From positions 868,001 to 927,781 of the forward strand of contig AP026151.1 of the NCBI GenBank assembly GCA_030295235.1: DNA of 59,781 nt. Direction: 5' to 3'. This DNA is from Fistulifera solaris. Its lineage: Eukaryota. Within the stretch, counting starts at the first letter, position 1, and each line of letters starts with the position of its first letter. Shown one piece after another: positions 2,293 to 58,713 of this stretch. The translations under genes and the position numbers were made by a program. The notes beneath the pieces were generated by a model. The model was not told the origin of the DNA. It saw nothing but the letters and a program-made list of their open reading frames with translations, and ran no database searches.

Positions 2293-3411
2293 CCTCGGTG
2301 TTTCTTTGTTTCAGAAGGGAAAAAAAGTGATGAAAGAAGAAATGTGTGAGGTGCCGATAGTGCGATCTTCGTGGTGTCGATTCATCCATCGGTGGCACAT
2401 GACTTTTTTCCGAAGACGGATCGTTGCTCGAATTAGGTCCGAATCACTTTCTTCCTGGGCCTTTTGACTATAAACTTTTATGTGAATTTTAGATCTTAGT
2501 CGAACAGTCCATCCGTTCTTCAGTCTTCCTTGCCCTTCTCTCCTTCCAATCATACGATCTGAAATGGGCCCAGTTAGAAAAAGGCATTCTTCGACATACA
2601 GTTTGTATCCTTTTTACATGCAAAAAGAATCCGGAGAACGAATGGGGAGCATTTTTACAGAACCAGAAGAGCGGATGCCGATACAGATTGCCAGGTTACA
2701 GTACAAAGTACAGGCTAAATGCTAAATCTTGAACCAGGAGTTCGGATTTGTTGTCTATTCAAACAGTGCAATCGTTCTTGATTCTTGATACTTGTACTGT
2801 AGTTGAGAGTTGAGATTGAGATGGGATAGGCGATGATTGCAGATTGCAGATTGCAGAATAGAAGAAAATAATGACCTTTAGTTCACAACTTGAAGTTAAT
2901 GGTGGTTTGTGGCAAGCAATTGCTCGCTGCTCGCTGCTTGCGAGAATCGAGAAATATTACGAAAATTAAAGAGACAAAGACGCACTTAGTTGTTTGAATT
3001 GTTTAGAGGTTACCTTGGACAGTTGCTACGTTACCGAACAATTGAGTAACCTCACGTTTCCTCCCTTGAGCAAATTTTTTATCTTTCTTGAAAGCTGCCG
3101 GAACTACTACGTCCTAAGCGATATTAAGTTAATAGATGCTATCAAATGAAATTTTGTTATTCAATGGTTTTGTTTCAATAGACTACTGAAATTCTGTGTA
3201 GTGAGGATAAGACAGACTGAGATTGGTTGAGCTCATCATACAGAAATTCTGTGAAATGTGTACTTAGAAATACAAACATTCTGTGTGAAGTGAACAGGGG
3301 CATCGGTCTGGTCGTAAGGCATTAGTACAAATGTCCATTTGTACAAATGCGAAAGGATTAAATAATGGCGTGAATGTGGTCCTAATGTAAACGTTTCGGA
3401 TAATCTAGAAG

Positions 3412-4733
3412 AAATCGGTGTTTTGCATATAACAGAAATTCTGTGGTAGTTCCAGAATTCTGGAATCGATGTTGTCGATCAACCCGAGATTTTGTGGTCG
3501 TTCCAGAAATTCTAAAATCGGTGATTTGCGTCAAACAGAGATTCTTTGATCGTTCCAGAAATTCTGGAATAGGTGTTTTGGCTCAAACAGAGATTCTGTC
3601 GTCGTTCCAGAAATTCTAAAATCGGTGATTTGCGTCAAACAGAGATTCTTTGATCGTTCCAGAAATTCTGGAATAGGTGGTTTGGGTCAAACAGAGATTC
3701 TGTGGTCGTTCCAGAAGTTCTGGAATCGGTGGTTTGGGTCAAATCGAGATTCTTTGATCGTTCGAGAAATTCTGGAATCGGTGGTTTGGGTCAAAGTGAG
3801 ATTCTGTGGCAATTCCAGAAATTCTGGAATCGGTGTTCTAGGTCAAACCGAGATTTTGTCGTTGTTCTAGAAATTCTGGAATCGGTGGTTTGGGTCAAAC
3901 CGAGATTCTTTGATCGTTCGAGAAATTCTGGAATCGGTGGTTTGGGTCAAACAGAGATTCTTTGATCGTTCGAGAAATTCTGGAATCGGTGTTCTGGGTC
4001 AAACCGAGATTTTGTCGTTGTTCTAGAAATTCTGGAATCGGTGTTTTGGGTCAAACAGAGATTCTGTCATCGTTCCAGAAATTATGGAAACGGTGCTTTC
4101 CGTCAAACAGAGATTGTGTGGTCGTTCCAGAAATTCTGGAATCGTTGGTTAAAGTCATACAGAGATTCTGTGGTCGTTCCAGAAGTTCTGGAATCAGTGT
4201 TTTAGGTCAAACAGAGATTCTGTGGCAATTCCAGAAATTCTGGAATCGATGTTTTGGGTCACACAGAGATTCTTCCAGAAATGCTGGAATCGGTGTTTTG
4301 GGTCAAACAGAGATTATGTCGTCGTTCCAGAAATTCTGGAATCGGTGATTTGCGTCAAACAGAGATTATGTCGTCGTTCCAGAAATTCTGGAATCGGTGA
4401 TTTGCGTCAAACAGAGATTATGTCGTCGTTCCAGAAATTTTGGAATCGGTGATTTGCGTCAAACAGAGATTCTGTGGTCGTTCCAGAAATTCTGGAATCG
4501 GTGTTTTGGGTCAAACAGAGATTCTTTGATCGTTCGAGAAATTCTGGAATCGGTGTTTTGGGTCAAACAGAGATTTTGTCGTCGTTCCAGAAATCCTGGA
4601 ATCGGTGTTCTGGGTCAAACCGGGATTGTGTGGTCGTTTCAGAAATTCTGGAATCGGTGCTTTGCGTCAAACAGAGATTGTGTGGTCCTTCCAGAAATTC
4701 TGGAATCGGTGTTTTGGGTCATTCAGAGATTCT
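3412..4733 (+). repeat. Tandem satellite with a 52-bp unit (about 25 copies) and palindromic core TTCCAGAAATTCTGGAA
   Basis: Unit is approximately CCAGAAATTCTGGAATCGGTGTTTTGGGTCAAACAGAGATTCTGTGGTCGTT. Period of 52 measured at 4325->4377. Degenerate GAAATTCTGTG copies lie upstream at about 3190-3290. Confidence 0.95.
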
Positions 4734-5186
4734 TTTATACAGAGATAGTCAAGCTGTGTTAAGAAGAATGAATAAAGCTACGGTAGCCGTAGCTGGGTTT
4801 ATTCTTTTATTAGGCTAGACTATAGATCGAGTTCCTTGAGGGGTGAGGATCGCAGCATTGCCACGTCATTTAGTATCGTTTTTTGTGTAAGGAGTCTGTC
4901 GTTCCATGTTCCATCGGCGGCGTCATCCCGTCAGCAGCAACGAAAGAGAACGAGGTTCGTCGTTTTGTACACCATGACGGAGCCTCAACAACACAAGATT
5001 TCTTTTTTCGAGTTTCTCTTTCGTTCCTCGCATCGGCGTCGTGACTTTGTTGAGAGCGAAAGAAGAAAGAAGCATCGATAATCGATAAGCAGCCAGCTGT
5101 CGTCGTCTTTGAAGGATCGAAGGTGGAGGAAATCATATTTTAGTTTTATTGTTACCTATTCGGTTGATTCATTTTACAATCTACAA

Positions 5187-6477
5187 ATGACAGGAATGAC
5201 TTATCGGCTAGTATTCGCAACAATTGCATCCGCAGCACTTCTGTTGTCGTTCGCGACAGCTTTTCAGCCGCTGCAGCCGCAGCAAACACCGAAGCGAATG
5301 GCTAACTTGAACGTTCAAAGCTTAGCCGCGCCGACCGAAGAGAAAAAAGACAACAAATGCGGCATCATGGCCGGCTACCGGAATTCCCAATCACAAGATA
5401 TTAACCAAAGAACAAGAGCAAAAACTAGGCAAAGCGATTCAGAAATCACGGAAATTACGGCAGTGGCTTGAACAGCATTCAACAAAAGCACAGACACCGC
5501 TCGATGACGCTGCGATTGTTTATGCGCTTTCTCCATCGATTACTTCGCACGAATCCTCTTTGTATCACAACTACACGCAAGCTCAAATCGATACTATTTT
5601 AGAGAAAGGGCATCACGCCAAGCAGACTTTGATGATGTATAATCTTCGATTAGTATCGAAAATTGCCAAGAAATGGGCGTACATGACACACAACAACAAT
5701 GGCGATTACATGTCGAATGCCAACGATGGCTCGCTCACGCGTCCTTCGGTACAAGAAGCCATTCAAGAAGGTATTGAAGGACTCGCAAGGGCCGCCGATC
5801 GTTACGATCCCACCAAAAATTGGCGATTCTCAACGTACGCGACGTATTGGATCACCGACTCGATTCGGAACTGCTACGCATCGGCAACGAACGGCCACGC
5901 GATGCGATTGCCCTCGGCGTATTACGAAACCGTCGTGCGGTACAAGTCTCTCATCAAAGAACAGTATCACCTTCGCCAAGCACCACCGCCGATGGAAGAT
6001 CTCGCGGCACAGATGGACATGAAGCTTCCTCGGTTGCAAAAGATTCTTCGAGTCGCGCAGCCTCCGCTGTCGTTGGATGGGCCGACGTCTTCGTTTGCGG
6101 GTGCTGGAAAGTCGGGCATTGCGGAGGCATCGACCACCATGCTCGGAGAGATTCTGGTCATGGGAACGTCGGAAGATCCGGAAGCACTGTTGGAATGGAG
6201 TATGCTACGAGGTGCATTGGAGCACGCGTTATTGACCCAATTGACACCGCGCGAACGTGACGTTGTACGCTTGCGTTCGGGGTTCGATGATGGCGTGACG
6301 AGAACGTTTCGAGAAGTTTCCGAGGATTGTTACGAAGGCAAAATAAGTCCGGTTCAAGTTCAGGTCACATGGACCAAGGCCCTGAAGAAGCTTCGTTCTC
6401 CGCAAGCTTTGTCGAAGTACGGATGGATGTCCTACTTTGAAATGTGCGACGTGGATCCCGAGACTGTTACATTGTGA
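5187..6477 (+). CDS. Nuclear-encoded plastid RNA polymerase sigma-70 factor (1-nt indel at the A-run near 5345)
   Basis: Signal peptide plus ATAF|Q plastid-type motif. After the shift comes region 1.2 HKILTKEQEQKLGKAI. Region 2: YNLRLVSKIAKK and IQEGIEGLARAADRYDPTKNWRFSTYATYWI. Region 4: LTPRERDVVRLRSG...KALKKLR. Confidence 0.92.
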
Positions 6478-7107: not shown

Positions 7108-7340
7108 CGGTTCCAGAGCTTGTGGAGTGTACACAGAATATCTGTATAAATGGTCAATATCACTACTTCCAGAATTTCTGGACTTCTTACAGGATTTCTG
7201 TATGCTTCAAAACGACAATTCCAGAATTTCTGGAAGCAGCACAGAATTTCTGTATTATTGAAACTGATTCCAGAATTTCTGGAACAAGCAAAGTTTGCAT
7301 TATTTTGCTTTTATTGCTTCAATTATTATTTTTCCAGAAT
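7108..7340 (-). repeat. Short degenerate array of the same satellite family, in reverse orientation
   Basis: TTCCAGAATTTCTGGA(A) alternates with CACAGAATTTCTGT at about 50-bp spacing, which is the reverse complement of the 3412-4733 unit. Confidence 0.8.
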
Positions 7341-7799
7341 ACGTTGTCGACAAAAGTGCGAATGATCTTATTGACAGCAACCGTGCTGTCCATAAGATGA
7401 AACGCATCCGACATTCAATGAGCAATGAAGTAGACTATGAAGCTATGAAGTAATCGATTATCGATTGCTGTGAATTGTGATGGTGAATAAATGATGAAGA
7501 ATGAAGAATGAGCGCAACTCGTTTTTTCAATTGCAAACTACAAAGAAGCAGACTGTCACTGCCGTTTATTGGAAGCAAGCCAGCAAGCCGCAAAGATAAT
7601 TCGAAGGCCGAGTGAATGAGACGAACCGGATGGCGCGCAATGCGCAATGAAAGATCGAATGAATGAAGTGTTCAACAATCTTCTCGAGACCCGCACCATT
7701 GGATGTGCTGGTGGCTTCTCAGCCACACAATCTTGTGCGATCTTTCAATAGATCTTTCGTCACAATCCTGTCCTCTCAATAAATTTGCTTGACAACACC

Positions 7800-8585
7800 A
7801 TGAAGATCGGTAACTACGCCATCGCCTTTGTGGCCCTTCCTACCTTGGCCTTTGGGGCTCGTCATCCTACCTGCCAGACGTTCACGGAGATTTACGCCGA
7901 TGGAACTGAACTTTGCGAGAAGATGTTCTCCGATGCCTTTGTCGTCGTCCCCGACGACCAACCAGCTTATCACATGTGGTTCTTCGACACGGATAACAAT
8001 CCGAACGATCAAGTTACTCGTGATATCTTCGGCACCGAGCCTCTCGAAGAATGCAACGTGCAGTACTTTCACAAACAAGTGCCAAGCCCGGAAGGTGATG
8101 ACATGGGCGAGTGTCACCCCTGGAAGCAGCGCTCTTGTTGCCACGGTGAAACCGTCGGAAGCGTCGAAGAGATGAAGGCCCTTTACGGAAGTAGCTGGGA
8201 TCGCTGCGGAACCATGTCGGAAGCTTGCGAGCGTTTCTTCGTCTTTGAGCTTTGCTTCTACGAGTGTGAACCCTCGGTCGGTTTGTTTCGTCGCTTCAAC
8301 GATAGTCAGACGGATCATCCTGACTTCAACACGTGGCAGCTCTATCAGATGCCCATGAAGAAAAGTTACTGTGATGCCTGGTTCGATGCCTGCAAGAACG
8401 ACTTCTTTTCCGAGGAGCGCTTCTCGACGATCAAGGAAGAGAAGGAAGTGAACAAACTTGGCGTCTCGTTGGGTGTCATCGGGGCATTCGCTTTCCTTCT
8501 TTGTCTCTTCTCCTCGTTCTTGGTCCACCGTGAACGCAGCGGCAAGCCCGTGTTTGTCGCTGAGAAGGCGAACCCGGTGGCTTAA
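7800..8585 (+). CDS. Folate receptor/riboflavin-binding-protein family (FOLR-like) protein with signal peptide and C-terminal TM helix
   Basis: Motifs HKQVPSPE, CHPWKQRSCC, WDRCGTMSEACERFFVFELCFYECEP and CDAWFDAC match the Folate_rec Cys pattern. Intact ORF with TM GVSLGVIGAFAFLLCLFSSFLV. Confidence 0.9.
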   Translation: MKIGNYAIAFVALPTLAFGARHPTCQTFTEIYADGTELCEKMFSDAFVVVPDDQPAYHMWFFDTDNNPNDQVTRDIFGTEPLEECNVQYFHKQVPSPEGDDMGECHPWKQRSCCHGETVGSVEEMKALYGSSWDRCGTMSEACERFFVFELCFYECEPSVGLFRRFNDSQTDHPDFNTWQLYQMPMKKSYCDAWFDACKNDFFSEERFSTIKEEKEVNKLGVSLGVIGAFAFLLCLFSSFLVHRERSGKPVFVAEKANPVA

Positions 8586-8633
8586 CTCGTTCTGTGAGAT
8601 ACGTGTTGCAACATGGATAATATGAAATGATAC

Positions 8634-8748
8634 TCTTGCCGCGGGAGCTTTGTGACGTGGGTATTGGCTGAGAGATTAAAGAGTCGAAAGATTCTTTGTT
8701 GACCGTTCGAACCTGAACATGGTAATGCATGCGAAAGGGAAGGTGAGA
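8634..8748 (+). ncRNA. TPP (thiamine pyrophosphate) riboswitch aptamer in the 3' UTR of FOLR-like copy 1
   Basis: P1 TCTTGCC/GGTGAGA; P2 GCGG/CCGT; GCTGAGA pyrimidine-sensor motif; P3a hairpin AAAGAGTC-GAAA-GATTCTTT; GAACCTGA-ACATGGTAATGCATG-CGAAAGGGAA pyrophosphate arm. Confidence 0.9.
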
Positions 8749-8867
8749 TGTGTCACGGAAATATTATCACGAAAGTGTTGCTATGAGGACGTTTAGTAAG
8801 ATAACATAGTAGTGAAAAGTGATTCTTTATTGAATGTTTCTATTGTCTATTGCGCGTTTACTCGTCA

Positions 8868-9909
8868 TCATGATCTACTTCGAATATTTCGCCATGCTTC
8901 TCGCATCCGTCGTGCCTGACCCTCGGTGAAAACATCGTCACAGCCTAAAGGAGCGTAATCCATAATGTTGTCCAAAGGGTCTGCACCCGGTCGATCCGGG
9001 CAACTATCGGGCAGCGGGTTGGGACATGCACCAATGATTCTTCCATAGTACCAGCTTTGTGCGTTCGTGTCGTCTACCAAGTCGCCTGGTGAACATCCAC
9101 CGTCAAACGTGTGAAGTAGATTCAGCCAGTGTCCTGTTATGGAACAAGCGTCGACCAGTGAGCATTCGCCCACGAAGAGAAACACAAAAGCTGTACGACT
9201 ATTTCGCAAACTTACCGACTTCATGTGCCAGTGTCGTTTTATCGGTCGCACAATCCGTATCGACAACGATGCCGTCTCCCTTCCCCATAGCCTTGGCATT
9301 TTCCGCCAAATTCGCATATCCGCAATAGCGGCCACCAAACATCCTGGCTGCTTTGTAGTAGACATTGAGTGTTTTGAGATTCCCTTTTCTATGTTTCTTT
9401 TCCATATTCTTTTGTTCGAAAGTATTCCATTCCGAATCATACCAGATTTTATCTACTACGCGATTCGTCGCGACGACATTCAGCTGAAAGCCGGTCGAGA
9501 GAAGGAGTTGGTTAGTTATATCAATGTTTTCTTGTAAAATTTCATCCGATAAAAAGCCGGTGTCGTTATCTTTTTGAATGGCGTGGATATATGTGGTGAT
9601 GTTGACAAAGCCGCCATTTTCCGGACCGAAGTCTTCATCATCAATATCACCCCAAGGGTTGCATCGAAACAGACGATTCTTCGAGTTTGACCTCCTTTCC
9701 TGCTCATATTGAGCACGGGATAAACGCTCTTGCTGTGCGACAGCCATTTCTTCAATGGAATGAACATCGGGCGCTTGAAATCCACAGCCTTGAGGAGTAT
9801 CGGAAAGATCTCGATGATGGTGATGGTGATGGTGAAAGCCATGATGCTCATGCGCGAGGACAGCGGAGGCTGTAAGAGCACAGATAACAACGGATTCGAT
9901 TTGCATCAT
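8868..9909 (-). CDS. Secreted M43 (pappalysin/ulilysin-like) zinc metalloprotease with a poly-His tract, copy 1
   Basis: Signal peptide, HEHHGFHHHHHHH, Cys-switch-like GCG. Intron 9215-9134 splits HEV|GHWLNLLH. Also GDLVDDT and the NIMDY Met-turn, then FTEGQARRM. Confidence 0.92.
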
Positions 9910-10677
9910 TGCAGTGTTTAAAATGTATAAACAGTTTCGCTTTTCATCGATTTCGAATTTGTATCAACCAAGTCAACAGCATCTTTCTCGTCAACAAGTC
10001 AACACAGCAAAATTCTGCGTCTTTCGGTGCAACGTTCTTGCCATCTCAGTAAAAAAATCACAAGCCCTTCATTCATGTATTTCAAATCCAATCACTAATC
10101 AGAAATATCCCATACCAAAGTGTACAGCAAGAAGCTGTTCATTACTTAACGTTTGTTTGTCGACAAGAAGACACTTAAGATATCGTTTGTCAGTCATGTT
10201 TAAGCCCTGTAATCTTTTGATTCTAGTATTGTTTTGACAGTACACATTGAATAACGATTCCGAAATTGTATCTTAAATGTGTCAGTTTGAATATTCCATT
10301 TAGTACATCGCACCAGAAGCTGGCGCGCGCTCCGGACACGTTATTGCCTTCGTGGCTCTTGAACTCCATGAAAGTTGAGGGTTGCTGCCGCAAGCCGCAA
10401 GAAAATGCAACATGCGATGCGCATGCGAAAAAAAAGTGAACGAGACGAAGGCGATGATGATGTAAGTGGCTACGAAAGGCAACTGAATGCAAACTGAGGA
10501 CAACACTTCCATTGAAATGTATCATTCAGGTCTAATCAAGCTGTCCTTCACACAACCGACTGTACATTCGCCTGCACAGTCACCTGGAATCCAAGATCAC
10601 ATCATGGCATCATTGAAAAATCACTACGACGACTTTTGACGACGACAAAAGAAAATGATTTTCACAATAATTTACTC

Positions 10678-11793
10678 TTATTTTTGACACTGTGAGACAT
10701 CTTTACATACAAAAGACAAGTGAATCAAGCCGTCGCTTATTAAGGGAAAGGATTTTGCCGGATGCGGCGGATCAGCTCTTCCAAGGCCGAAGATGCGTTC
10801 TGCATCGGAGCGCCGGCACTTTCCCAAGCGAAGAATCGGCGTCAGAGCCGGAGGAGCCGGCAATGGCGGCGGAAGCGTCAGATTCATCCGTAAACACTGC
10901 CTCATCCAATCAAGCGCGTCGGCTTCATGCTCATTGCGTAACTGATGAAACAAGGAATCAGAGAGAAGGGCTTGCGTCCGCAAATGCAGAAGCTGCTGAC
11001 TCAATACCGATTCTTGACTGGGAAATTGCGGAACTGCGAAACTTTGATTAGAGAGAGGTTGCATCCGACTCCCATGGTTAGGAGCAGCGTCGACCAGGCA
11101 AATTGTGTTTTGCTTCAATGCAGGCACCTTCGTTGCGGCCTTCTTCACTACGGGGCGTTTCGTTGTTGCTTTACTGGCACTTTTGATTTCACAGAGCTGT
11201 TCCGGCTGGTCACGACAAAAGTTAGGATGCGAAAACACCTGACAATTAATAGGAAAGCCATAGAGAGTCGGCGGTGACTTTCGAAACCTCCAGCGGTATG
11301 CCTTCCGAACGAAACTTTCGTATTTCACGTTGCCAAAGAACCTCCAGAGCCATTTCCCATAGAGAGCATTCGGGTCACGGATGACGACAGCAGTTCCATT
11401 GAGAGCCCAAAAGATTGCTTCCTGCTCCATTTTTCGACCAGCACCGGCGCATACGCGCTCGATATAAGTCATCATCAACATGAACTGATGGGAGCAACGA
11501 GGGCATAAAGTGTGAAACAAACTCGAATTATGATGCTACAATGTGCAATAATTTCTTACCTTCTCCGGGAACGTGAGTATGCTGTCGAAATCTCGCGTGT
11601 ATGCGGGAATGTGTGTTGTGGGTAGATGATTTATTGCGTGGATGAACTCGCTGGTGTTACGAGCCGGACGTGGGCTCTTTGATGCTCCCTCCACTGGACT
11701 TGCCACACTATCTGACTTCTCAGACTGAGTATCCTGGGCAATAGGTTTGGCATCTTCCACTTGGGGCTTTTTGTTGTTGTGAAGATCTTCCAT
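10678..11793 (-). CDS. Heat-shock-factor-type DNA-binding domain protein
   Basis: Exon 1 ends TFPEK, then a GT-AG intron at 11559-11485. HSF DBD motifs IFWALNGTAVVIRD, FFGNVKYESFVRKAYRWRFRK and FSHPNFCRDQPE. Confidence 0.88.
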
Positions 11794-12509
11794 CGATGTC
11801 AAACAAATATTTCAATGGAAGTCGTCGGTCTTAAGTAGTAGAAACTGTTATTGTCAGGCCTCTTGAACTTGAGTCAATTGAATGCTCAACGATGAGTCGA
11901 TTGTGAAATTGTGAGCAAAAATGTTGTAGGTCCATCATCTTGTGTCGGCGTTACGGCGGCGAGGGTGAGGTGATAAGGAGAAATGTTGTTGTCGCGTTTT
12001 TTGTCGCCGCTCGCCGCACGCCGCACTCATCCGCACCGAAAGGAAATGGACCGTGTCGAGTAGAGTAGAGCGCATCTTACGTGTTGTGTCGTGTGCTAAT
12101 TCGCGTTTGACGTCACGATTTGCTTGCAACGCTTCATAATTTCTTTCCAAATTGGCGTCCAGGATGTTCTTCAGTCTTCTGCGGACTCTTAGACTGAAAT
12201 CAAAAGTACATCCATGTCCTATTTACGAAGCTATGACTTTTACGGGAGTGCAGAAAACTTGTCCGCTTCTCCACCTTCCGGTTTTAGGATTAGGGCCAAG
12301 AGCCAGAACTACTATAGCTAAAAATGTACATACATAATTTCGGCTTGCGGCTTGCGGAAAGCGGTATGGGTTCGCAGTTCGCAGTGCCGGTTTCCGGTTT
12401 CTTGGTTTCTTCGCTTCATGTCGTATTGTGTATTGTGACCATGTGGGTCCGAAATATGAAATATCGCACAGAATACTACTGGTAAAAAGCAAGTCCGAAA
12501 ACCGAAAAC

Positions 12510-12772
12510 TATAGTTCGACAAATATCGATATTCGGATTTTTACGAATATCAATATCGTATAATACGATATAATAACCGTTATTAATACTCGCAACCGTC
12601 TGTTTTTGTCCGCAAATTACAGCCATTCTGATGTCAAAAGCCTCAAATCCGTCTGTCAGACGTACGAATATCAATAAATATCGATATTGGCAAAATGGCC
12701 CTGATATTATACGCTATTATAACGCGAATATCGATATTCGTTATTTGTTATTTGAGAGGGTGTCGAACTATA
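12510..12772. mobile_element. hAT-like MITE, family A, copy 1 (263 bp)
   Basis: Perfect 12-bp TIR TATAGTTCGACA...TGTCGAACTATA and 8-bp TSD CCGAAAAC. Internal AATATCGATATT palindromes. A near-identical inverted copy is at 41954-42217. Confidence 0.92.
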
Positions 12773-14022
12773 CCGAAAACCGAAAGACCTGTTGCGTGTT
12801 TGTTGTTTGTTGCGTCTTCTGTATCGTTCATTCTGTAGTTCATTTTTCAAACGCTGTTCAACATTACTTGTACTACGTATAAACAACAACAAGCTACAAG
12901 CTAATAAAAGCGACAAGGCTACTTGTACAAGGTAATCACGAGTCACGAGTCGTCCTTTCAGCTACTAATAGAATGCTGACTAAGTATTGGTAAGGAGTGA
13001 CGAGTGACGAGCATGTTAGCGGTTAGCGTGCTAGCTATAGCGATCTAATGTCATTACCTGGTACGGAAGCAATAACTATACTGTAAGCAACAACCAACAA
13101 CATAGAGCTTTAGAGCCACAAAATTTGATATTTTAGACTAAGTTTGAAGTTCTACTCTAGCGACTGAATTCTGTAACCTAATCAAAAAATACCGAGTATC
13201 CTACAAAGGTCTGCAGGCAGCAGTTACCAGTCACGGCATAACGAGTTGCACGAGTGCTCTACAAAGGTATACTCTCCAAAGATAGCTACGATGTATTCTA
13301 GATTACCGTTGCAAAAGTCACTTCATCCCCTGACGAGATAACAAACATGCTTGCCTCTGTTGATGAATGCTCTTTTTAGGGTATCATTTTAGTTAAAATA
13401 AAATTTATACGGAGTAAGAAGTAATTTAGCTGGCGTGCGGGATACCCTTTACGCTCGACAAGCGTCAAGCGCCTTCTAGAGCTTCTGGAGCAAAGAAAGG
13501 CATTTGGTGGAAATGTTGAAGCTAGAGAAAATACAGTAGCTCCTAGCTCTCTCTGGCTGGAGGCTGGAGAGAGTGAGCGAAGAGAGAAAGAGAAAGGTAT
13601 TTTGAATTTTGTGACCGCTGTACTTCAAACGGGATACTCGAAACATTCCTAAATTTGTGGAACTCTGCAGCCCACACAAAAACTTTTCAAAACAAAGCAA
13701 GAAGCCAAGCGGCAACTGCAGGCGAGTCAAAGTTAATACTAAATCTTATCAATCATTCTACTTATGGTACTTGAGAATCGATAAGTAAAACTCAATAAAT
13801 GAATGGGATCTGAAGTAAATGGAGACGTGATAAGTGATAAGTTTTACAACGATATACGATATCGGGTGATGCGTGGTGCGCCCTGCTCCTGTCGAAGATG
13901 TTGAGATCTTCAGTTCTTCAGTTGACAAAGATCTTTACACGCAGGAATTGCTCTGACAGCCACACAATTTGAAAAGCGATCTTTCACAAAACGCAACAAC
14001 GTATCTTTGTATCACCACGACC

Positions 14023-14865
14023 ATGAAGATTACGAACTTTGCTATCGCCTTTGCGGCCCTCCCTACGTTGACAGGGGGGAGCTCGTCATTCCTCCTGTAA
14101 GCCGTTTACGGAGATTTACGCCCATGGAACCGATCTTTGCGAGAAAATGTTCTCCGATGCCTTTGTCGTCGTCCCCGACGACCAACCAGCTTTATCACAT
14201 GTGGTTCTTCGACACGGATAACAATCCGAACGATCAAGTCACTCGTGATATCTTCGGAACCGAGCCTCTTGAAGAATGCAACGTGCAGTTCTTTCACAAA
14301 GATGTTCCGAGCCCGGAGGGCGATGACATGGGCGAGTGTCACCCCTGGAAACAGCGCTCTTGTTGCCATGGCTCTACGGTTGCCAGTACCGAGGAACTCA
14401 AGACGCTCTACGGCGGCGGCCCGGACAAGTGCGGAGTCATGTCGGATGCGTGCGAACGTTTCTTTGTTTTTGAGTATTGCTTCTACGAGTGCGAGCCCTC
14501 GGTCGGTCTCTTCCGCAAGTTCAACGATAGTCAGACGGATCATCCGGACTTCAACACCTGGCAGTTGTACCAGATGCCCATGAAGAAAAGTTACTGTGAT
14601 GCGTGGTTCGATGCCTGCAAGAACGACTTTTACTCCGAAGAAAGCTTCACGTCGGAAGAACCCAAAGAAGTTAACAAGCTCAGCATCTCGATGGGTGTCA
14701 TGAGTGTGCTTTTTCTTTTTTCTTTGCGTCTTTTCCGCGTTCTTGATCCACCATGAACGTAGTGGTAAGCCTTTTTTGGTACCACAAAATCGGTTCCTCC
14801 GGCTGAAGGCGATGTCGGTATTTAAAAAGACGGATTTTTGTAGCAACGTTGATATTGCGAAATGA
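14023..14865 (+). pseudogene. FOLR-like paralogue, copy 2, with three +1 homopolymer insertions (pseudogene or assembly error)
   Basis: Collinear with 7800-8585. Extra bases in the G-run near 14075, the T-run near 14191 and the T-run near 14715 break the frame. No other stops appear once these are corrected. Confidence 0.8.
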
Positions 14866-14866
14866 C

Positions 14867-14986
14867 ACTTTTGCCGCGGGAGCTTTGTGATGTGGGTAAT
14901 GGCTGAGAAATTAATGGAGTCGAAAGATTCTTTGTTGACCGTTCGAACCTGAACATGGTAATGCATGCGAAAGGGAAGGCAAAAGT
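14867..14986 (+). ncRNA. TPP riboswitch aptamer in the 3' UTR of FOLR-like copy 2
   Basis: Same core as 8634-8748. Perfect 9-bp P1 ACTTTTGCC/GGCAAAAGT, which differs in sequence from copy 1 but still pairs. Confidence 0.9.
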
Positions 14987-15124
14987 ATTATGAAACTAAA
15001 ACCATCCATGTTGTTACAATGCAAAATCGTGGTGAAGAACTTGTCTACGAATGTATTATGAATATAGTATAGGTGTGGTTTACTTTATGAATGTCGCTAT
15101 CGCCAATATAATGAATCAATTTCT

Positions 15125-16247
15125 TCACCGGTTGCGAATGTTGTTCCAGGCTTCTTGCATTCGTTGGGCTTGGCCTTTGGTGAATATATCATCGCATCCC
15201 AAGGGAGCATAATCCATGATGTTGTTCAAAGGATCCGGCCCTGGTTGATTCGGGCATGTATCCGGCAATGGATTGGGACAAGCACCGCTCGTTCGTCCAT
15301 AATAAGACTTTTGCGCATTGGTATCGTCCACTAAATCTCCAGGGGAACACCCACCCGAAAACGTGTGCAACAAGTTCAGCCAATGGCCTTAAAAGGAAAA
15401 TACAAGACGGCAAGTCAGCGCAATGTCATCCTCTTCTTTTACGAGGGTCGTGGATTACTGAACGTACCGACTTCATGTGCCACGGTCGTGCGATCCAACG
15501 CGCAATTGATATCAATGGTGACACCATCACCGTTTCCTACCGCTGCAGCATCTTCGGCAAGATAAGCATAACCACAGAATCTACTGCTCCCGGAAACGGC
15601 AAGCTTGAAATAAATGTTGAGTGTGTTGAGGCCTCCCCTTTTCAGCTTAGCCTGCATTTCTCTTTCTTCCGCCGATCCTGATTGTGCTTGGAACCAGTTG
15701 TCGTTTTGTGCACGGTTAATGGAAATGACATTGATTTGAAATCCGGCCGATGATAGTAAGCTGTTCGCGAGTTGAATACTCTGATTCAGTGTGCTGTCGG
15801 AAAGAAACCCTTCTCCGTTCGTTCGAGAGACGGCATGCACATAAGTCGGAATAGAGACTTGAGAGTTCCAGTTACCACCGCCACCGCTGCCGCTATCATC
15901 ACCGCCATCGCTTCCGCCACCACCGCCCGTGTCAGTATCGTCTCCAGGATTCCAAGCACTTCCTCCTCCGCCAAAGAAATAGAACAACCGCCTTGCTGTT
16001 GTTCATATTGCCGCTGTTGTAATGCGAACCGTTCTTCTTCGACACGAGCGACTCGCTCTTCCTGTTCGGCCTGTAATTGATAAATTTCGTGCACGGCCGG
16101 TTCGTGGAAGCCACAACCTTCCGGTGTTTGGGCCAGCAGTTCTCGCAAACGACGGTCTCCGTGATGGTGGTGTTCATGGGCCCGTACAAGCGCTGGTGTT
16201 ACTAGAAATAGAAGAGTAAAGCATGGTATTGGATTGAATCTGCGCAT
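15125..16247 (-). CDS. Secreted M43 metalloprotease, copy 2 (Gly/Asp-rich linker; 1-nt indel near 15985)
   Basis: MRRFNPIP signal peptide, HEHHHHGDRRL, EGCGF. Intron at the same position as copy 1 (HEV|GHWLNLLHTF), then GDLVDDT and NIMDY. Confidence 0.87.
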
Positions 16248-25634: not shown

Positions 25635-27302
25635 ATGAAACGGTGGCTTCTTTTCACGAGTATCGCGCTCGTCACGGTGCACGCCGATCCAGATATCGCC
25701 ATCGAAGAAAATGAAAACTCACGGAATGTATTCCGGAGAGGCATTCATCCTCGCGGTCAAATAGTACCTCGAATGGCTGGAGGATTTCCCAGTGGCCCGG
25801 GTGCCTTTCCTTTTACAGTTCACACATTTGATGGCGATCAAGGCGTATGCGGTGGTGTTTTAGTTCATTCCGATGTTGTTGTCACGGCAGCGTCGTGTCA
25901 GAGTGTCTTTGAAGCTACCAATACTATCTATATCGGTAGCAACGATCTGTATGGACGCGATTTTGCTCCGCTATTAGCAATATCATCAGCATTGCCACAT
26001 CCGGACTTTGATGAGGTGACCTACGAGAATGATATAATGCTGTTGCATCTAGAAACCCCTGTTGGCAGTGCAGTGGCTTCCATAGCTACAACAATCCCAT
26101 CGGAAGATCAGTTATTATTTGCTTTGGGCTTTGGGAGACTCAATCCACTCGATGAAACATATCCTACGACTCGGCATGAAGTCGACATGCCCGCAGTCAG
26201 TTTTTCGTCTTGTCGAGATGTGTACGCGGACGCTGTCAACTCGGAGCGAAATGTCTGTGCAGGTATTGCCGGGATGGGACCTTGTGACGGAGACGAAGGA
26301 GCACCTTTGCTGGATGCTGTCACAACGACACTTCAGGGCATTTGGTCCTATTCCGAAGGGTGTGGGGCAGCACCGGCAGTCTTCACACGAGTGGCTTACT
26401 ATGATTCATGGATTCGTGAATTTATATGCAACAATTCGCAAGAGCCTCCAGACGATTGCTCGTCGCCAGGAGAGGATGATGATGTACCCGTTACTGATGA
26501 CGAGCCGACGAATGATGACATTCCCGTAGACGATGACGTGCCGGTTCCAGCAGATGATGATGTACCTGTAGATGACGACAACATTCCGACACCCTCACCG
26601 ACACATGAAGAAATGCACCCGACGAACGGAAAGGGTAAAGGTAAAGGAAAGAGATCCAGAAAATCGGTAGACAGCACATCGCACAAGATGAACAGATCGA
26701 ACAAATTGTCTAAGAAGTCTTCGTCATTAGGGAAAGGCTCTACGGGGAAAGGGTCCGGGAAAGGGTCAATGGGAAAAGGTTCTAGTGGAAAAGGATCATT
26801 AGGCAAGGGATCTAACGGAAAGGGCTCAAACGGAAAAGGTTCTTCAGGCAACGGATCCGGAGGCAAAGGTTCTTCAGGCAAAGTATCTACTGGAAAGGGA
26901 TCGAATGGCAAAGGATCCTCTGGAAAAGGATCGACGGGTAAAGGATCAGCCGGCAAGGGATCTAACGGCAAAGGTTCTTCTGGTAAAGGATCCGGCGGTA
27001 AGGGTTCTTCTGGAAAAGGCTCGGGCGGTAAAGGTTCGTCGGGAAAAGGATCGAGCGGAAAAGGATCTTCTGGAAAAGGATCGAACGGCAAAGGTTCGTC
27101 GGGAAAAGGATCACGCGGAAAAGGATCCGGCGGTAAAGGTTCTTATGGAAAAGATCGAGCAAGAAAAGTTCTTCTGGTAAAAAGTCATACGGCAAAGGTT
27201 CATCAAATGGAAAACGTATCTACAGAAAAGGTTCAGACCGACAATCGACAACAACATCAACAGATGATCGTGCCATCGATGTGTCCCCCTACAATATATT
27301 GA
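25635..27302 (+). CDS. Secreted trypsin-fold (S1A) pseudo-protease with acidic PVDDD repeats and a long GKGSx repeat tail
   Basis: CGGVLV, VTAASC (catalytic His->Ser), NDIMLL, CDGDEGAP (catalytic Ser->Glu), VFTRV..Y..WI. About 28 GKGS(S/N/T/G) pentapeptides. Possible indel near 27150. Confidence 0.88.
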   Translation: MKRWLLFTSIALVTVHADPDIAIEENENSRNVFRRGIHPRGQIVPRMAGGFPSGPGAFPFTVHTFDGDQGVCGGVLVHSDVVVTAASCQSVFEATNTIYIGSNDLYGRDFAPLLAISSALPHPDFDEVTYENDIMLLHLETPVGSAVASIATTIPSEDQLLFALGFGRLNPLDETYPTTRHEVDMPAVSFSSCRDVYADAVNSERNVCAGIAGMGPCDGDEGAPLLDAVTTTLQGIWSYSEGCGAAPAVFTRVAYYDSWIREFICNNSQEPPDDCSSPGEDDDVPVTDDEPTNDDIPVDDDVPVPADDDVPVDDDNIPTPSPTHEEMHPTNGKGKGKGKRSRKSVDSTSHKMNRSNKLSKKSSSLGKGSTGKGSGKGSMGKGSSGKGSLGKGSNGKGSNGKGSSGNGSGGKGSSGKVSTGKGSNGKGSSGKGSTGKGSAGKGSNGKGSSGKGSGGKGSSGKGSGGKGSSGKGSSGKGSSGKGSNGKGSSGKGSRGKGSGGKGSYGKDRARKVLLVKSHTAKVHQMENVSTEKVQTDNRQQHQQMIVPSMCPPTIY

Positions 27303-41953: not shown

Positions 41954-42217
41954 TATAGTTCGACACCCTCTCAAATAACAAATAACGAATATCGATATTC
42001 GCGTTATAATAGCGTATTATATCAGGGCCATTTTTGCCAATATCGATATTTATCGATATTCGTACGTCTGACAGACGGAATTGAGGCTTTTCACGTCAGA
42101 ATGGCTGTAATTTACGGACAAAAACAGACGGTTGCGAGTATTAATAACGGTTATTATATCGTATTATACGATATTGATGTTCGTAAAAATCCAAATATCG
42201 ATATTTGTCGAACTATA
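41954..42217. mobile_element. hAT-like MITE, family A, copy 2 (inverted relative to copy 1)
   Basis: TIR TATAGTTCGACA/TGTCGAACTATA. TSD TTCAAGGC/TTCAAGGT (7 of 8 match). Reverse complement of 12510-12772 with few differences. Confidence 0.92.
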
Positions 42218-56566: not shown

Positions 56567-57899
56567 CTTCCAACTTACCAGAGTCGGCTGTGGAGCCTGC
56601 TATGACTTGGGATGTCAGAGCGGTTTCTCCCAACTTCTATTTTTAAGGTTCACGTCCGCATTCTATCTTCAAGTTAGCGTCGTCCTTCCTCTACATGATC
56701 CTGCCTATGGTGGGTGTCCTGTGAAGGTACAGAAGCTAAATCCGTTTTCATTCTATACTCAAAAGGCATATTGTTATCCCATCTGCCACGCCAGTGCAGC
56801 CATCTGTTCGAATCTTTGGCGAAGCTGGTGGTAGTCTCAAATTAAGCTTCCTCTCATGATGCATGTAGCTTAACACTCACAATTAATTGATCGTTTATGC
56901 CTAATTCGCTCAATTGTCTGTATCTACCGCATTATCAAGAGACTTGGCAGCTTTGGTGTCGTTAGAACCCTTGAAATTGACTGGTAGCACTGCTGGTTGT
57001 AGATGACCGGTTCGAGGTCCTGAACACGGCATCGAAGATCCAATAAATAAATAATAAGAATGTTTGAGCTCCGCACTGTTGTGAGTCATCCCCTACTCGT
57101 GAAACATCATTCTCACGGGGGGAAGAGTAGGATTTGAGGGAGTGGCACTCATGTCAGTACCTTTGAATTCCTTAATACGATCATTGATACGTCCAGCGCA
57201 CTTCTTTCATTCCAGAGCCCACGGTGTGCGGCTTCCGCGACTGAACAGTTTCTGAGCATAAAGAACTGCCCGTCCGCCGGGGAGAGTCAGGATATCGCAT
57301 TATCAGGAATCGGGTTAAATACAATAATATCCGCCCGCTCCCTCACGGGGAGCCTCTCTTTGAGGCACAGTCGGCTCAGCATGTCAATAATTGACTACCA
57401 GGTAGGTCAATTCATGTTGAAAGGGCTTTATGCATTTATGTTGAAAAATGATGCAATTAAGGTTGTCAATCTCGGAGCAGATTATTGTTGGGATTGAATA
57501 TTTTAAGTTCCAATTGCTACTTGGTGAGTTTCAACTAGACATCCAAAGCGCATCTGTGATTCAAACCAACTGTAATCATCGTTAACTACTGTCAGTCAAC
57601 CTTCACAGAATTTTGTAAGAATCAAATCACTGCTTCCATAATTTCTGGAGCGTCCACAGAATTTCTGAAAGACTGAAAACAACTTACTAAAATTTCTCAA
57701 ATTTACATACTCAAGTTTCAACTTATTGTAGTCAGGTGGCGGGCTTCCTGTCATGATGGTTTCCGGCAAGATATCTTTCAAGGCGGCCGTAATTTCCAGG
57801 GGAAAATATTCAAACAATTCACCACGTGCATCATCAGGTGTTGAATGAAAAGGATAGGAAGTTTCTTGTAGGGGAGCCCATGGATGGTGGTTCAAGCTC

Positions 57900-58415: not shown

Positions 58416-58418
58416 GGG

Positions 58419-58713
58419 TTAGGAATTTGGAAATTGGGATATGGAACTTGGAATGTGGAAAAGGGAACTTAGAACTAGGTAAAGCGGAATATGGTAACTA
58501 GGAAGAGGTAAATGAGGTAGAAGGAACAAGCAGATAATTGGAAAAGAGGAATAGGTGGGAAAATAGTTAGGAATTTGGAAATTGGGATATGGAACTTGGA
58601 ATGTGGAAAGGGAACTTAGAACTAGGTAAAGCGGAATATGGTAACTAGGAAGAGGTAAATGAGGTAGAAGGAACAAGCAGATAATTGGAAAAGAGGAATA
58701 GGTGGGAAAATAG
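58419..58713 (+). repeat. Purine-rich direct tandem duplication (148 + 147 bp), subtelomeric
   Basis: 58419-58566 is repeated at 58567-58713, differing only by one A in a run. Confidence 0.95.

What the first reader, a model, noticed from the sequence alone, without database searches (positions are those of the whole stretch)
8634..14986. Two TPP riboswitch aptamers in FOLR-like 3' UTRs, conserved while their flanks diverge
Seen: about 110 nt (8634-8748 and 14867-14986) are almost identical between the duplicates while neighbouring UTR sequence has diverged. The P1 stems differ in sequence yet both pair, and there is a GAAA-capped P3a arm. Established: TPP aptamers are the known eukaryotic riboswitch class and have been reported beside thiamine-related and FOLR-like genes in marine algae. 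Whether diatom ones actually regulate expression has been questioned. Inference: selection on the RNA structure in both copies implies function. Copy 1 has AG|GTGAG in the 3' strand of P1 (8741-8747), a possible splice donor. Copy 2 has GGCAAA there, so the paralogues may use different expression platforms.
Basis: partly seen in the sequence, partly recalled or inferred. Interest (0 to 1): 0.75.

Follow-up and report, generated by a model that had tools for sequence, protein, structure and literature searches.

The report
Published thiamine aptamers on long stem
Two diatom genes for folate-receptor-like surface proteins end in a vitamin-B1-sensing RNA fold that is already in print, but the fold sits on a long conserved stem shared with ten other thiamine genes, in an alga that appears unable to make the vitamin, which makes it a good place to test whether diatom riboswitches work.

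Summary
Both aptamers are real (RF00059, 49.7 and 57.8 bits) and already published: their letters equal two rows of Table S1b of PMC9544697. The scan noted the FOLR and NMT1 aptamers before on other pieces of this genome. 'Flanks diverge' is wrong as a rule: copy 2 is the outlier. G000 holds 12 aptamers (6 FOLR, 6 NMT1-like genes), all on a 33-37 bp basal stem with two-sided changes at 10 of 37 pairs; 11 keep a downstream motif. Purifying selection is shown and no conversion signal lies in the UTR. The donor-like site is real and ancestral, but one RNA-like run reads through it unspliced and no acceptor is evident. Copy 2's frameshifts look like assembly errors. G000 gave no ThiC, ThiE or SSSP hit but has TPK, so it is a predicted thiamine auxotroph. 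The FOLR protein is a circular permutation of the animal folate receptor. Best reading: a TPP-responsive 3' UTR off-switch on thiamine-capture genes that works without splicing (0.5); binding and switching are untested, and the one diatom aptamer tested in print did not switch.

The parts
7800..8585 (+). FOLR/ATS1-like gene, copy 1 (261 aa): hydrophobic N-terminus, circularly permuted folate-receptor domain, one C-terminal membrane helix, short tail with E-x-x-G-x-P-x-F
   Evidence: PF03024 E 6e-36; swapped block order against human FR-alpha/beta; hydropathy and tail conservation 60 of 60; covered by RNA-like runs X1, X3 from 7738
8601..8640 (+). 5' arm of the long basal stem, copy 1 (four helices, innermost = P1)
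   Evidence: 35 pairs, -30.3 kcal/mol, z -4.9; covariation on 12 copies
8641..8741 (+). TPP aptamer core, copy 1: GCGG-type P2, P3, CUGAGA (8668-8673), P3a with GAAA loop (8686-8689), P4/P5
   Evidence: RF00059 49.7 bits over 8631-8758; row 20 of Table S1b, PMC9544697
8740..8748 (+). Donor-like site AAG|GTGAGA (GT at 8743-8744) in the 3' strand of P1; no splicing seen
   Evidence: contig 8688-8829 of run X1 bridges it without a gap
8742..8792 (+). 3' arm of the long basal stem, copy 1
   Evidence: 43 of 46 identical to the C26 partner
8803..8816 (+). Conserved downstream motif AACATAGTAGTGAA, recognisable in 11 of 12 cassettes; can pair with the outer 3' arm; candidate 3'-end signal
   Evidence: exact 11-mer 24 times in G000 (control 72), 7 of them behind aptamers; X1 contig ends at 8829
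8868..9909 (-). Convergent M43-type metallopeptidase gene, duplicated with the FOLR gene; not the owner of the aptamer (wrong strand)
   Evidence: PF05572 on the last exon; alignment of the duplicates
14023..14825 (+). FOLR/ATS1-like gene, copy 2; four single-base indels in homopolymer runs in this assembly
   Evidence: tblastn with P0003 in four pieces; indels at 14710 and 14771 contradicted by DNA-like run X2; P0003 is an intact 266-aa form
14833..14875 (+). 5' arm of the basal stem, copy 2 (outer 10-bp helix and a perfect 9-bp P1 kept, middle helix eroded)
   Evidence: 35 pairs, -27.7 kcal/mol, z -5.4; middle-helix probability 0.01
14876..14977 (+). TPP aptamer core, copy 2: CUGAGA 14903-14908, GAAA loop 14922-14925
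   Evidence: RF00059 57.8 bits over 14866-14994; row 19 of Table S1b, PMC9544697
14978..15036 (+). 3' arm of copy 2 (GGCAAAAGU in P1, GT lost) and decayed downstream motif (15024-15036)
15125..16247 (-). Second convergent M43-type metallopeptidase gene with an 80-nt intron
   Evidence: weak PF13582 hit; CT..AC joint 15386-15467 in run X4

Best explanation
Each copy is a diatom-type TPP aptamer forming the apex of a roughly 215-nt 3' UTR cassette: a 33-37 bp interrupted basal stem that extends P1, the aptamer core, and a motif about 60 nt further on, near the transcript end. The cassette is shared by all six FOLR/ATS1-like and all six NMT1-like genes of this genome, so it was moved between unrelated genes. 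Shown: sequence, fold, constraint, sharing, presence in RNA-like contigs for copy 1. Inferred: the organism cannot make thiamine (no ThiC, no ThiE found, TPK present), lacks the SSSP transporter and captures thiamine with the FOLR-like membrane proteins. Inferred mechanism: the long stem holds P1 shut at all times, so P1 is a clamp and not the switch; the core inside is poised (1.0-3.2 kcal/mol to fold), TPP binding closes it, and this lowers output from the mRNA (stability, 3'-end formation or translation) without splicing, so that capture genes are high when the vitamin is scarce. Copy 2 is a drifting version of the same cassette.
For: Rfam matches. 91.6% of cells paired over 37 basal pairs, 10 pairs with two-sided change, 0 of 500 shuffles reach the paired share or covariation score, slid controls 29-60%. 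Outer-arm duplex z -2.0 to -6.0 in 12 of 12, against z below -2 in 3 of 106 and below -3 in 0 of 106 scored metagenome aptamers. Arms constrained in two of three partner pairs (6 of 81 and 1 of 81 differences, p 5e-4 and 8e-6). FOLR and NMT1 cassettes share 27-31 of 41 and 36-39 of 52 arm columns and 11-13 of 14 motif columns, but 3-5 of 15 just beyond. ThiC, ThiE and SSSP not found, TPK found; the 18 rows for the closest named species in PMC9544697 file 4 list none of THIC, TH1, SSSP either. In Micromonas RCC299, which lacks THIC and TH1, the riboswitch-bearing homologue ATS1 rose 80-fold without thiamine (PMC4260697, passages). Pocket residues for the pteridine end are kept in the protein family (D81 as E in 59 of 60, Y85 in 60 of 60, W171 as W/F in 60 of 60), those for the rest of folate are not (R103 as N, R106 as Q/E; roles from PMC9055165). 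P1 probability 0.58-1.0 without ligand.
Against: No binding or regulation was measured. The one diatom aptamer tested in depth (P. tricornutum THIC) did not switch in transcript, 3' RACE, reporter or chimera assays (PMC9544697 and its preprint, sections 15 and 20). The 12 copies are related, so pair counts overstate independent events, and the structure was drawn from these sequences; 'pairs with two-sided change' was reached by 13 of 500 shuffles and 'further pair types' by 162 of 500. The arms of copy 2 and its partner are no more conserved than fourfold sites (25 of 82, p 0.74). No output element that responds to aptamer folding was found in 10 of 12 copies. Absence of genes rests on searches of one assembly. 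The metagenome control is mostly GC-rich bacterial DNA; among 16 hand-picked eukaryote-like loci 4 also have strong basal pairing (z -4.2 to -5.9), so the stem is not unique to this genome.
Confidence: 0.5

Rival explanations
1. The cassette is a conserved structural element that no longer switches: it sets mRNA stability, localisation or the 3' end constitutively (with or without bound TPP), as proposed for other diatom aptamers.
For: No response of PtTHIC in four kinds of assay. The basal stem is predicted formed without ligand, and motif accessibility is unchanged by aptamer folding in 10 of 12 copies.
Against: Ligand-contact motifs are invariant in 12 of 12; the cassette sits only on thiamine-linked genes and was acquired by a second family; the negative result comes from a prototroph.
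Confidence: 0.27
2. Alternative-pairing platform for 3'-end formation: the outer 3' arm pairs either with the 5' arm or with the downstream motif, so that TPP decides whether a poly(A) signal is exposed.
For: The arm-motif hairpin pairs in 97.9% of cells and is what RNAalifold picks for that region; it competes with the outer helix in 6 of 12 copies (probability 0.2-0.98); the X1 contig ends 21 nt after AACATA.
Against: No two-sided change in its 8 pairs, 82 of 500 shuffles reach the paired share. Coupling to aptamer folding only in 2 of 12 (0.31 to 0.03; 0.34 to 0.10), since about 20 fixed pairs lie between. The diatom near-upstream signal in print is the triplet UAA (PMC6413133, passages). 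One contig end is no poly(A) site.
Confidence: 0.1
3. One reading: the GT in the 3' strand of P1 is a splice donor (or U1 site) hidden when TPP is bound and used when it is absent.
For: 8 of 9 consensus positions in 8 of 12 copies, GT in 10 of 12; the U is kept opposite G, A or U; AGGTRAG occurs 7 times in 120 kb of both strands; copy 2 lost the GT and both AGs of the motif together. The runs' culture conditions are unknown and contigs drop rare forms.
Against: X1 bridges the site unspliced and no joint starts there in 4 of 4 runs. The 62-67 nt stretch to the motif AG has no CT[AGC]A[CT] branch in 12 of 12, is 20-55% pyrimidine and holds 3-6 earlier AGs in 11 of 12, unlike the neighbouring real intron. 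The C25 third paralogue lacks the GT though its arms are nearly unchanged and its transcript type appears in X1 and X3. The site lies inside a stem of -28 to -39 kcal/mol.
Confidence: 0.1
4. The likeness is neutral: recent duplication or gene conversion between tandem copies.
For: A conversion tract exists in the coding region: 15 same-chromosome sites against 1 partner site in 7901-8140. Only one informative site lies inside the aptamer.
Against: In 8586-8867 the pattern is 34 partner sites to 0; fourfold divergence between copies is 23-59%; constraint holds between chromosome sets, in the unlinked third paralogue and across gene families; FOLR genes of other organisms carry the aptamer too.
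Confidence: 0.03

Closest known systems
Predicted diatom TPP aptamers behind FOLR and NMT1-domain genes (Llavero-Pasquina et al. 2022, PMC9544697, Table S1b)
   Same: Rows 19 and 20 carry the letters of window 14838-15023 and 8602-8787 (compared by eye); 12 accepted aptamers are listed for that species, matching the 12 found in G000; GCGG P2, P3a, 3' UTR position.
   Different: In the passages read, P1 is described as short and A-rich; no long basal stem, shared cassette or downstream motif is mentioned. The two C26-type copies are filed there under the convergent metalloprotease; strand and position put them in the FOLR 3' UTR. The passages do not discuss auxotrophy of that species.
TPP riboswitch aptamer, Rfam RF00059
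   Same: Full-length model match, CUGAGA, P2, P4/P5, GCG motif.
   Different: P1 extended to 33-37 bp; copy 1 is below the gathering score; no known platform.
ATS1 of Micromonas RCC299 (McRose et al. 2014, PMC4260697)
   Same: PF03024 protein with a TPP aptamer, in a genome without THIC and TH1, beside NMT1-like genes with aptamers.
   Different: Prasinophyte; induction by starvation measured there, not here; I did not compare the sequences.
Plant THIC 3' UTR riboswitch
   Same: Aptamer in the 3' UTR.
   Different: Plants and green algae use an AG acceptor in P2 (AGGG) and alternative splicing; here P2 is GCGG and no splicing was seen.
Human folate receptors alpha/beta, Juno, riboflavin-binding protein
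   Same: Homologous disulfide-rich fold (E 5e-32; Z 5.0-6.0, rmsd about 3, over model residues 77-213).
   Different: Blocks in swapped order (profile 21-76 = FR-alpha 169-227; 75-211 = 24-154); membrane helix and tail; R103 and R106 replaced and the 134-140 loop not aligned.

Membership tests
TPP aptamer (RF00059) | Covariance-model match over the whole model | tested here: met
   Copy 2 57.8 bits (cut-off 54.3); copy 1 49.7 bits, E 9e-9, positions 1-105, below the cut-off
TPP aptamer (RF00059) | CUGAGA and P4/P5 with GCG motif | tested here: met
   Invariant in 12 of 12 copies
TPP riboswitch | Aptamer is part of the transcript | tested here: met
   Copy 1: runs X1 and X3, guessed RNA, cover genes only (6 and 7 of 30 bins); X1 contigs run 7739-8829. 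Copy 2: no contig of its own listed, undecided
TPP riboswitch | Binds TPP selectively | not testable with these tools
   Needs in-line probing or ITC
TPP riboswitch | Ligand changes gene expression | not testable with these tools
   No thiamine-shift data; negative for PtTHIC in print, positive for Micromonas ATS1 transcript
Plant/green-algal splicing-type TPP riboswitch | AG acceptor in P2 (AGGG) | tested here: not met
   P2 is GCGG in 12 of 12 (feature)
Splicing-type eukaryotic TPP riboswitch | Alternative splice forms around the aptamer | tested here: inconclusive
   No joint at the GT in 4 runs, unspliced contig in X1; contigs drop rare forms and conditions are unknown
Diatom-type TPP aptamer (PMC9544697) | 3' UTR, GCGG P2, P3a stem | tested here: met
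Folate receptor family PF03024 | Profile match above cut-off | tested here: met
   124 bits against 29.8, two stretches
Folate-binding folate receptor | Folate contacts D81, R103, R106, H135, S174, W102, K136, W138, W140 | tested here: not met
   D81 as E, R103 as N, R106 as Q/E, S174 as A/S, W102 as Y/F; 134-140 loop outside the aligned blocks
Thiamine receptor | Binds and delivers thiamine | not testable with these tools
   Inferred from aptamer linkage and gene content only

The most novel reading that the evidence does not exclude
A working eukaryotic TPP riboswitch with an undescribed, non-splicing 3' UTR platform (aptamer clamped on a 35-bp stem plus a 3'-end motif), copied as a mobile cassette onto two unrelated gene families, controls thiamine capture in an auxotrophic diatom whose receptor is a circularly permuted folate-receptor protein standing in for the missing SSSP transporter.
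Probability: 0.3. Interest if true: 0.78.

Novelty: new variant of a known kind. Interest (0 to 1): 0.4.

Why it matters
The aptamers and their gene link are known. What is open is whether any diatom TPP aptamer regulates anything, and how eukaryotic riboswitches act in genes without splicing. The negative test in print used a species that makes its own thiamine. This genome predicts an auxotroph with twelve constrained cassettes and a natural decayed variant (copy 2), so starvation, 3' end mapping and cassette mutants give a direct test. The stem also means that constructs with the bare aptamer leave out a conserved part. The permuted folate-receptor protein is a concrete candidate for an algal thiamine receptor.

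Tried and rejected
Splicing at 8743: no joint in 4 of 4 runs laid; no RNA holder is on record as RNA, three runs behave like RNA and X2 like DNA. Copy 2 has no RNA contig of its own listed; this is no evidence that it is silent. Contig depths were not used to rank genes. Copy 2 as a pseudogene: rejected as likely assembly error (two of four indels contradicted by X2; an intact 266-aa protein is on record; the other two indels were not shown in the cut table). Conversion as the cause of aptamer identity: rejected. The motif as a general genome signal: rejected, 24 matches against 72 for the reversed control. Aptamers behind THIC or SSSP in G000: none; family and pattern searches give the same 12. 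SSF-family genes exist in G000 (8 matches) but the 4 loci fetched did not match a diatom-like SSSP query (best E 0.007, 25% over 93 aa); the other 4 matches were not fetched. Foldseek gave no match at E 0.001 or better (best 1.1e-3, folate receptors); the model is middling (pLDDT 72), and no structure alignment covered residues 24-74, so the permutation rests on sequence. Pair counts under forced arm pairing do not separate this genome (33-37) from other loci (25-33); only the energies do. Literature searches for the long stem, the permutation and auxotrophy of the closest named species listed nothing that describes them; I saw listings and abstract starts only for the other hits, and subscription papers are missing from the library. 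The published aptamers of other diatoms were not folded. No SignalP run; the signal peptide is judged by hydropathy.
Full report
Observation. Rfam finds a TPP aptamer at 14866-14994 (57.8 bits, above the 54.3 cut-off) and at 8631-8758 (49.7 bits, E 9e-9, whole model, below the cut-off). The two are identical at 106 of 117 columns from P1 to P1. Each lies 50-60 nt behind a PF03024 gene in a tandem duplication that also holds a convergent M43-type peptidase gene. The P3a GAAA loop, the two different but paired P1 stems, AGGTGAG at 8741-8747 and GGCAAA in copy 2 are as described.

Already in print. Table S1b of Llavero-Pasquina et al. 2022 (PMC9544697; I saw passages, sections 15 and 20 of the preprint, and rows of supplementary files 2 and 4) lists both sequences, rows 19 and 20, as 3' UTR aptamers of genes with similarity to folate receptor in Fistulifera solaris; by eye the letters equal window 14838-15023 and 8602-8787. 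Of the 13 rows for that species 12 are accepted aptamers, and G000 gives 12 by family search and by pattern. The closest named proteins are from the same species. I cite the genome as G000 only. Earlier notes of this scan reached the same verdict for the FOLR and NMT1 aptamers on other pieces of this genome; I had formed my reading before opening them and checked the paper myself.

The larger element. The 12 aptamers lie behind six FOLR-like genes (three paralogues on each of C25 and C26) and six NMT1-like genes (triplets on C7 and C8; the three on C7 tested, PF09084). Aligned, conservation runs about 40 nt upstream and 75 nt downstream of the core. The two arms pair with each other: four helices, 37 pairs, 91.6% of cells paired, 10 pairs with changes on both sides, no shuffle of 500 reaching the paired share or the covariation score, slid controls 29-60%. 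Two measures are weaker (13 and 162 of 500), the sequences are related and the structure was drawn from them, so this is support, not proof; the alignment also puts the outer helix of copy 2 and its partner about three columns out of register. Leaving out the 12-14 nt next to the core, arm pairing beats shuffles in 12 of 12 copies (z -2.0 to -6.0), against z below -2 in 3 and below -3 in none of 106 scored of 121 metagenome loci (output partly cut; most of these loci are GC-rich and bacterial-looking). Of 22 loci at or under 53% GC I picked 16 as eukaryote-like by eye; 4 have basal pairing at z -4.2 to -5.9, 5 between -2.1 and -3.8, 7 weaker. Long P1 stems thus occur in other such aptamers, but not in all. 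Five of these loci carry a FOLR-like gene upstream (two confirmed by Pfam; three labelled by eye), so the link is widespread. FOLR and NMT1 cassettes share 27-31 of 41 and 36-39 of 52 arm columns and 11-13 of 14 columns of a downstream motif, but only 3-5 of 15 beyond it (four pairs compared): one cassette was copied between unrelated genes. The paper cites a suggested horizontal origin for these NMT1-like genes; I did not test that.

Selection or conversion. Tandem copies did exchange sequence: in 7901-8140, 15 informative sites group the copies by chromosome and 1 by partner. In 8586-8867 the count is 0 against 34, though only one such site lies in the aptamer. Between partner copies the core differs at 5 of 101, 4 of 101 and 1 of 105 columns against 27 of 98, 26 of 93 and 20 of 87 fourfold sites (p 1e-5 to 5e-7). 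The arms are constrained in two pairs (6 of 81, 1 of 81) and not in the pair that holds copy 2 (25 of 82, p 0.74). Copy 2 carries 18 private changes in 8599-8795 against 4-7 for the others; three of them and a deletion turn wobble pairs and a bulge of P1 into a perfect 9-bp helix, while the middle helix and the motif decay.

Transcripts. Four runs hold the region, none on record as RNA. X2 covers all 30 bins like DNA; X1, X3 and X4 cover 6, 7 and 9 bins over genes, and X4 shows a spliced 80-nt intron of the second peptidase gene. X1 contigs cover 7739-8829; one spans 8688-8829 with no other letter and no gap, across the GT at 8743. So the copy 1 RNA holds the aptamer, both arms and the motif in unspliced form. 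No joint starts at the GT in any run; contigs drop rare forms and the culture conditions are unknown. No contig of copy 2's own is listed in the RNA-like runs. X2 contradicts the indels at 14710 and 14771, and an intact 266-aa protein is on record, so the frameshifts of copy 2 are probably assembly errors.

The donor-like site. It matches MAG|GTRAGT at 8 of 9 positions in 8 of 12 copies and has GT in 10 of 12; AGGTRAG is rare (7 in the window, 9.5 expected), and the U is kept opposite different partners. Copy 2 lost the GT and both AGs of the motif. Against it: the 62-67 nt stretch to the motif AG has no branch motif in 12 of 12, is purine-rich and has 3-6 earlier AGs in 11 of 12, whereas the real intron next door has CTGAC and a pyrimidine tract; the third paralogue on C25 lacks the GT while its arms are nearly unchanged; and the site is buried in a stem of -28 to -39 kcal/mol. 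I give it 0.1.

How it could switch. At 25 C the models give P1 formed with probability 0.58-1.0 without ligand, P2 only 0.01-0.19, and a cost of 1.0-3.2 kcal/mol to fold the core: a poised core inside a fixed clamp. The outer 3' arm can instead pair with the downstream motif (97.9% of cells, no two-sided change), but forcing the aptamer fold shifts that balance in only 2 of 12 copies. The motif is no general genome signal (24 exact matches against 72 for the control, 7 behind aptamers), and the diatom poly(A) element in print is a UAA triplet (PMC6413133, passages). The output step is therefore inferred, not found: most likely mRNA stability, 3'-end formation or translation read from the state of the core.

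Physiological setting. G000 gave no hit for ThiC (family, control rings in 13 of 14 genomes; diatom-like protein), none for ThiE (control 11 of 14), none for a diatom-like SSSP query, and four hits for TPK. The paper's own tables list no THIC, TH1 or SSSP among the 18 rows for the matching species. This predicts need for intact thiamine and no known transporter; absence from one assembly is not proof. McRose et al. 2014 (PMC4260697, passages) report the same gene set in Micromonas RCC299, where the aptamer-bearing PF03024 gene ATS1 rose 80-fold on starvation. The negative diatom result comes from P. tricornutum THIC, a prototroph.

The protein. It aligns to human folate receptors in swapped order: profile 21-76 to FR-alpha 169-227 (E 6e-5) and 75-211 to 24-154 (E 2e-24); 57 of 60 relatives show this order by motif. 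The model (pLDDT 72) matches folate receptors and Juno over residues 77-213 only, as expected for a permutation but not an independent proof of it. D81, Y85 and W171, which hold the pteridine ring (PMC9055165, passages), appear as E, Y and W/F in 59-60 of 60; R103 and R106 are replaced. A smaller aminopyrimidine ligand such as thiamine is my inference. There is one C-terminal membrane helix and an invariant E-x-x-G-x-P-x-F tail.

Verdict. The finding as given is a rediscovery of published aptamers. Not found in print: the long covarying stem, the shared cassette with its motif, the predicted auxotrophy and the permutation. Functional TPP switch without splicing 0.5; static element 0.27; arm-motif poly(A) switch 0.1; splice or U1 site 0.1; neutral 0.03. 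Supplements of the bioRxiv version were not seen, nor figures of either paper, which may show the stem.

Noticed in passing
window 7800-8585 and 14023-14825; alignment A3: The algal FOLR/ATS1 family is a circular permutation of the animal folate-receptor fold, with an invariant cytoplasmic E-x-x-G-x-P-x-F motif that may be a sorting signal.
   Followed up: partly
G000 whole genome: No ThiC, ThiE or SSSP hit but TPK present: predicted thiamine auxotroph, unusual among diatoms according to PMC9544697.
   Followed up: partly
L028:3720-8130, L029:3438-7817: Tandem triplets of NMT1-like genes, each with the same cassette; their P5 has a C where the window copies have A (CCTGCTCATGG), as does the third FOLR paralogue.
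   Followed up: partly
window 7901-8140 and 14125-14365: Gene-conversion tract between the tandem FOLR copies, independently on both chromosome sets.
   Followed up: yes
window 13327, 14710, 14771, 15972; L026 near 1800: Single-base indels in this assembly that run X2 contradicts; the C26 partner of copy 1 also has a one-base gap that a stored protein (P0001) lacks. Frameshifts in this genome should be read with care.
   Followed up: partly
window 3345-4832, 7141-7263, 57608-57681: Array of a 52-nt unit (about 28 copies) with dispersed inverted partial copies, one about 540 nt upstream of FOLR copy 1.
   Followed up: no
window 12510-12772 and 41954-42217: A 260-nt element present twice in inverted orientation at 96-99% identity, with high depth in run X2: probably a small non-autonomous transposon.
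   Followed up: no
window 5326-6477: Sigma-70-like ORF (regions 2, 3, 4), probably a nucleus-encoded plastid sigma factor.
   Followed up: no
window 10678-11535 (-): HSF-type DNA-binding gene between the two duplicated blocks; the C26 interval between the copies is about 1.7 kb shorter.
   Followed up: no
L055, L117, L146, L161, L162; L063, L067, L071, L078, L150, L164; L059, L158: Metagenome loci with diatom-type aptamers behind FOLR-, SSSP- and THIC-like genes; four FOLR ones share a GATCAAA-like word after P1.
   Followed up: partly
window 59262-59781, 26742-27191, 58418-58713: Tandem repeats of 12, 15 and 147 nt; the 12-nt array runs to the end of contig C25 and may be subtelomeric.
   Followed up: no
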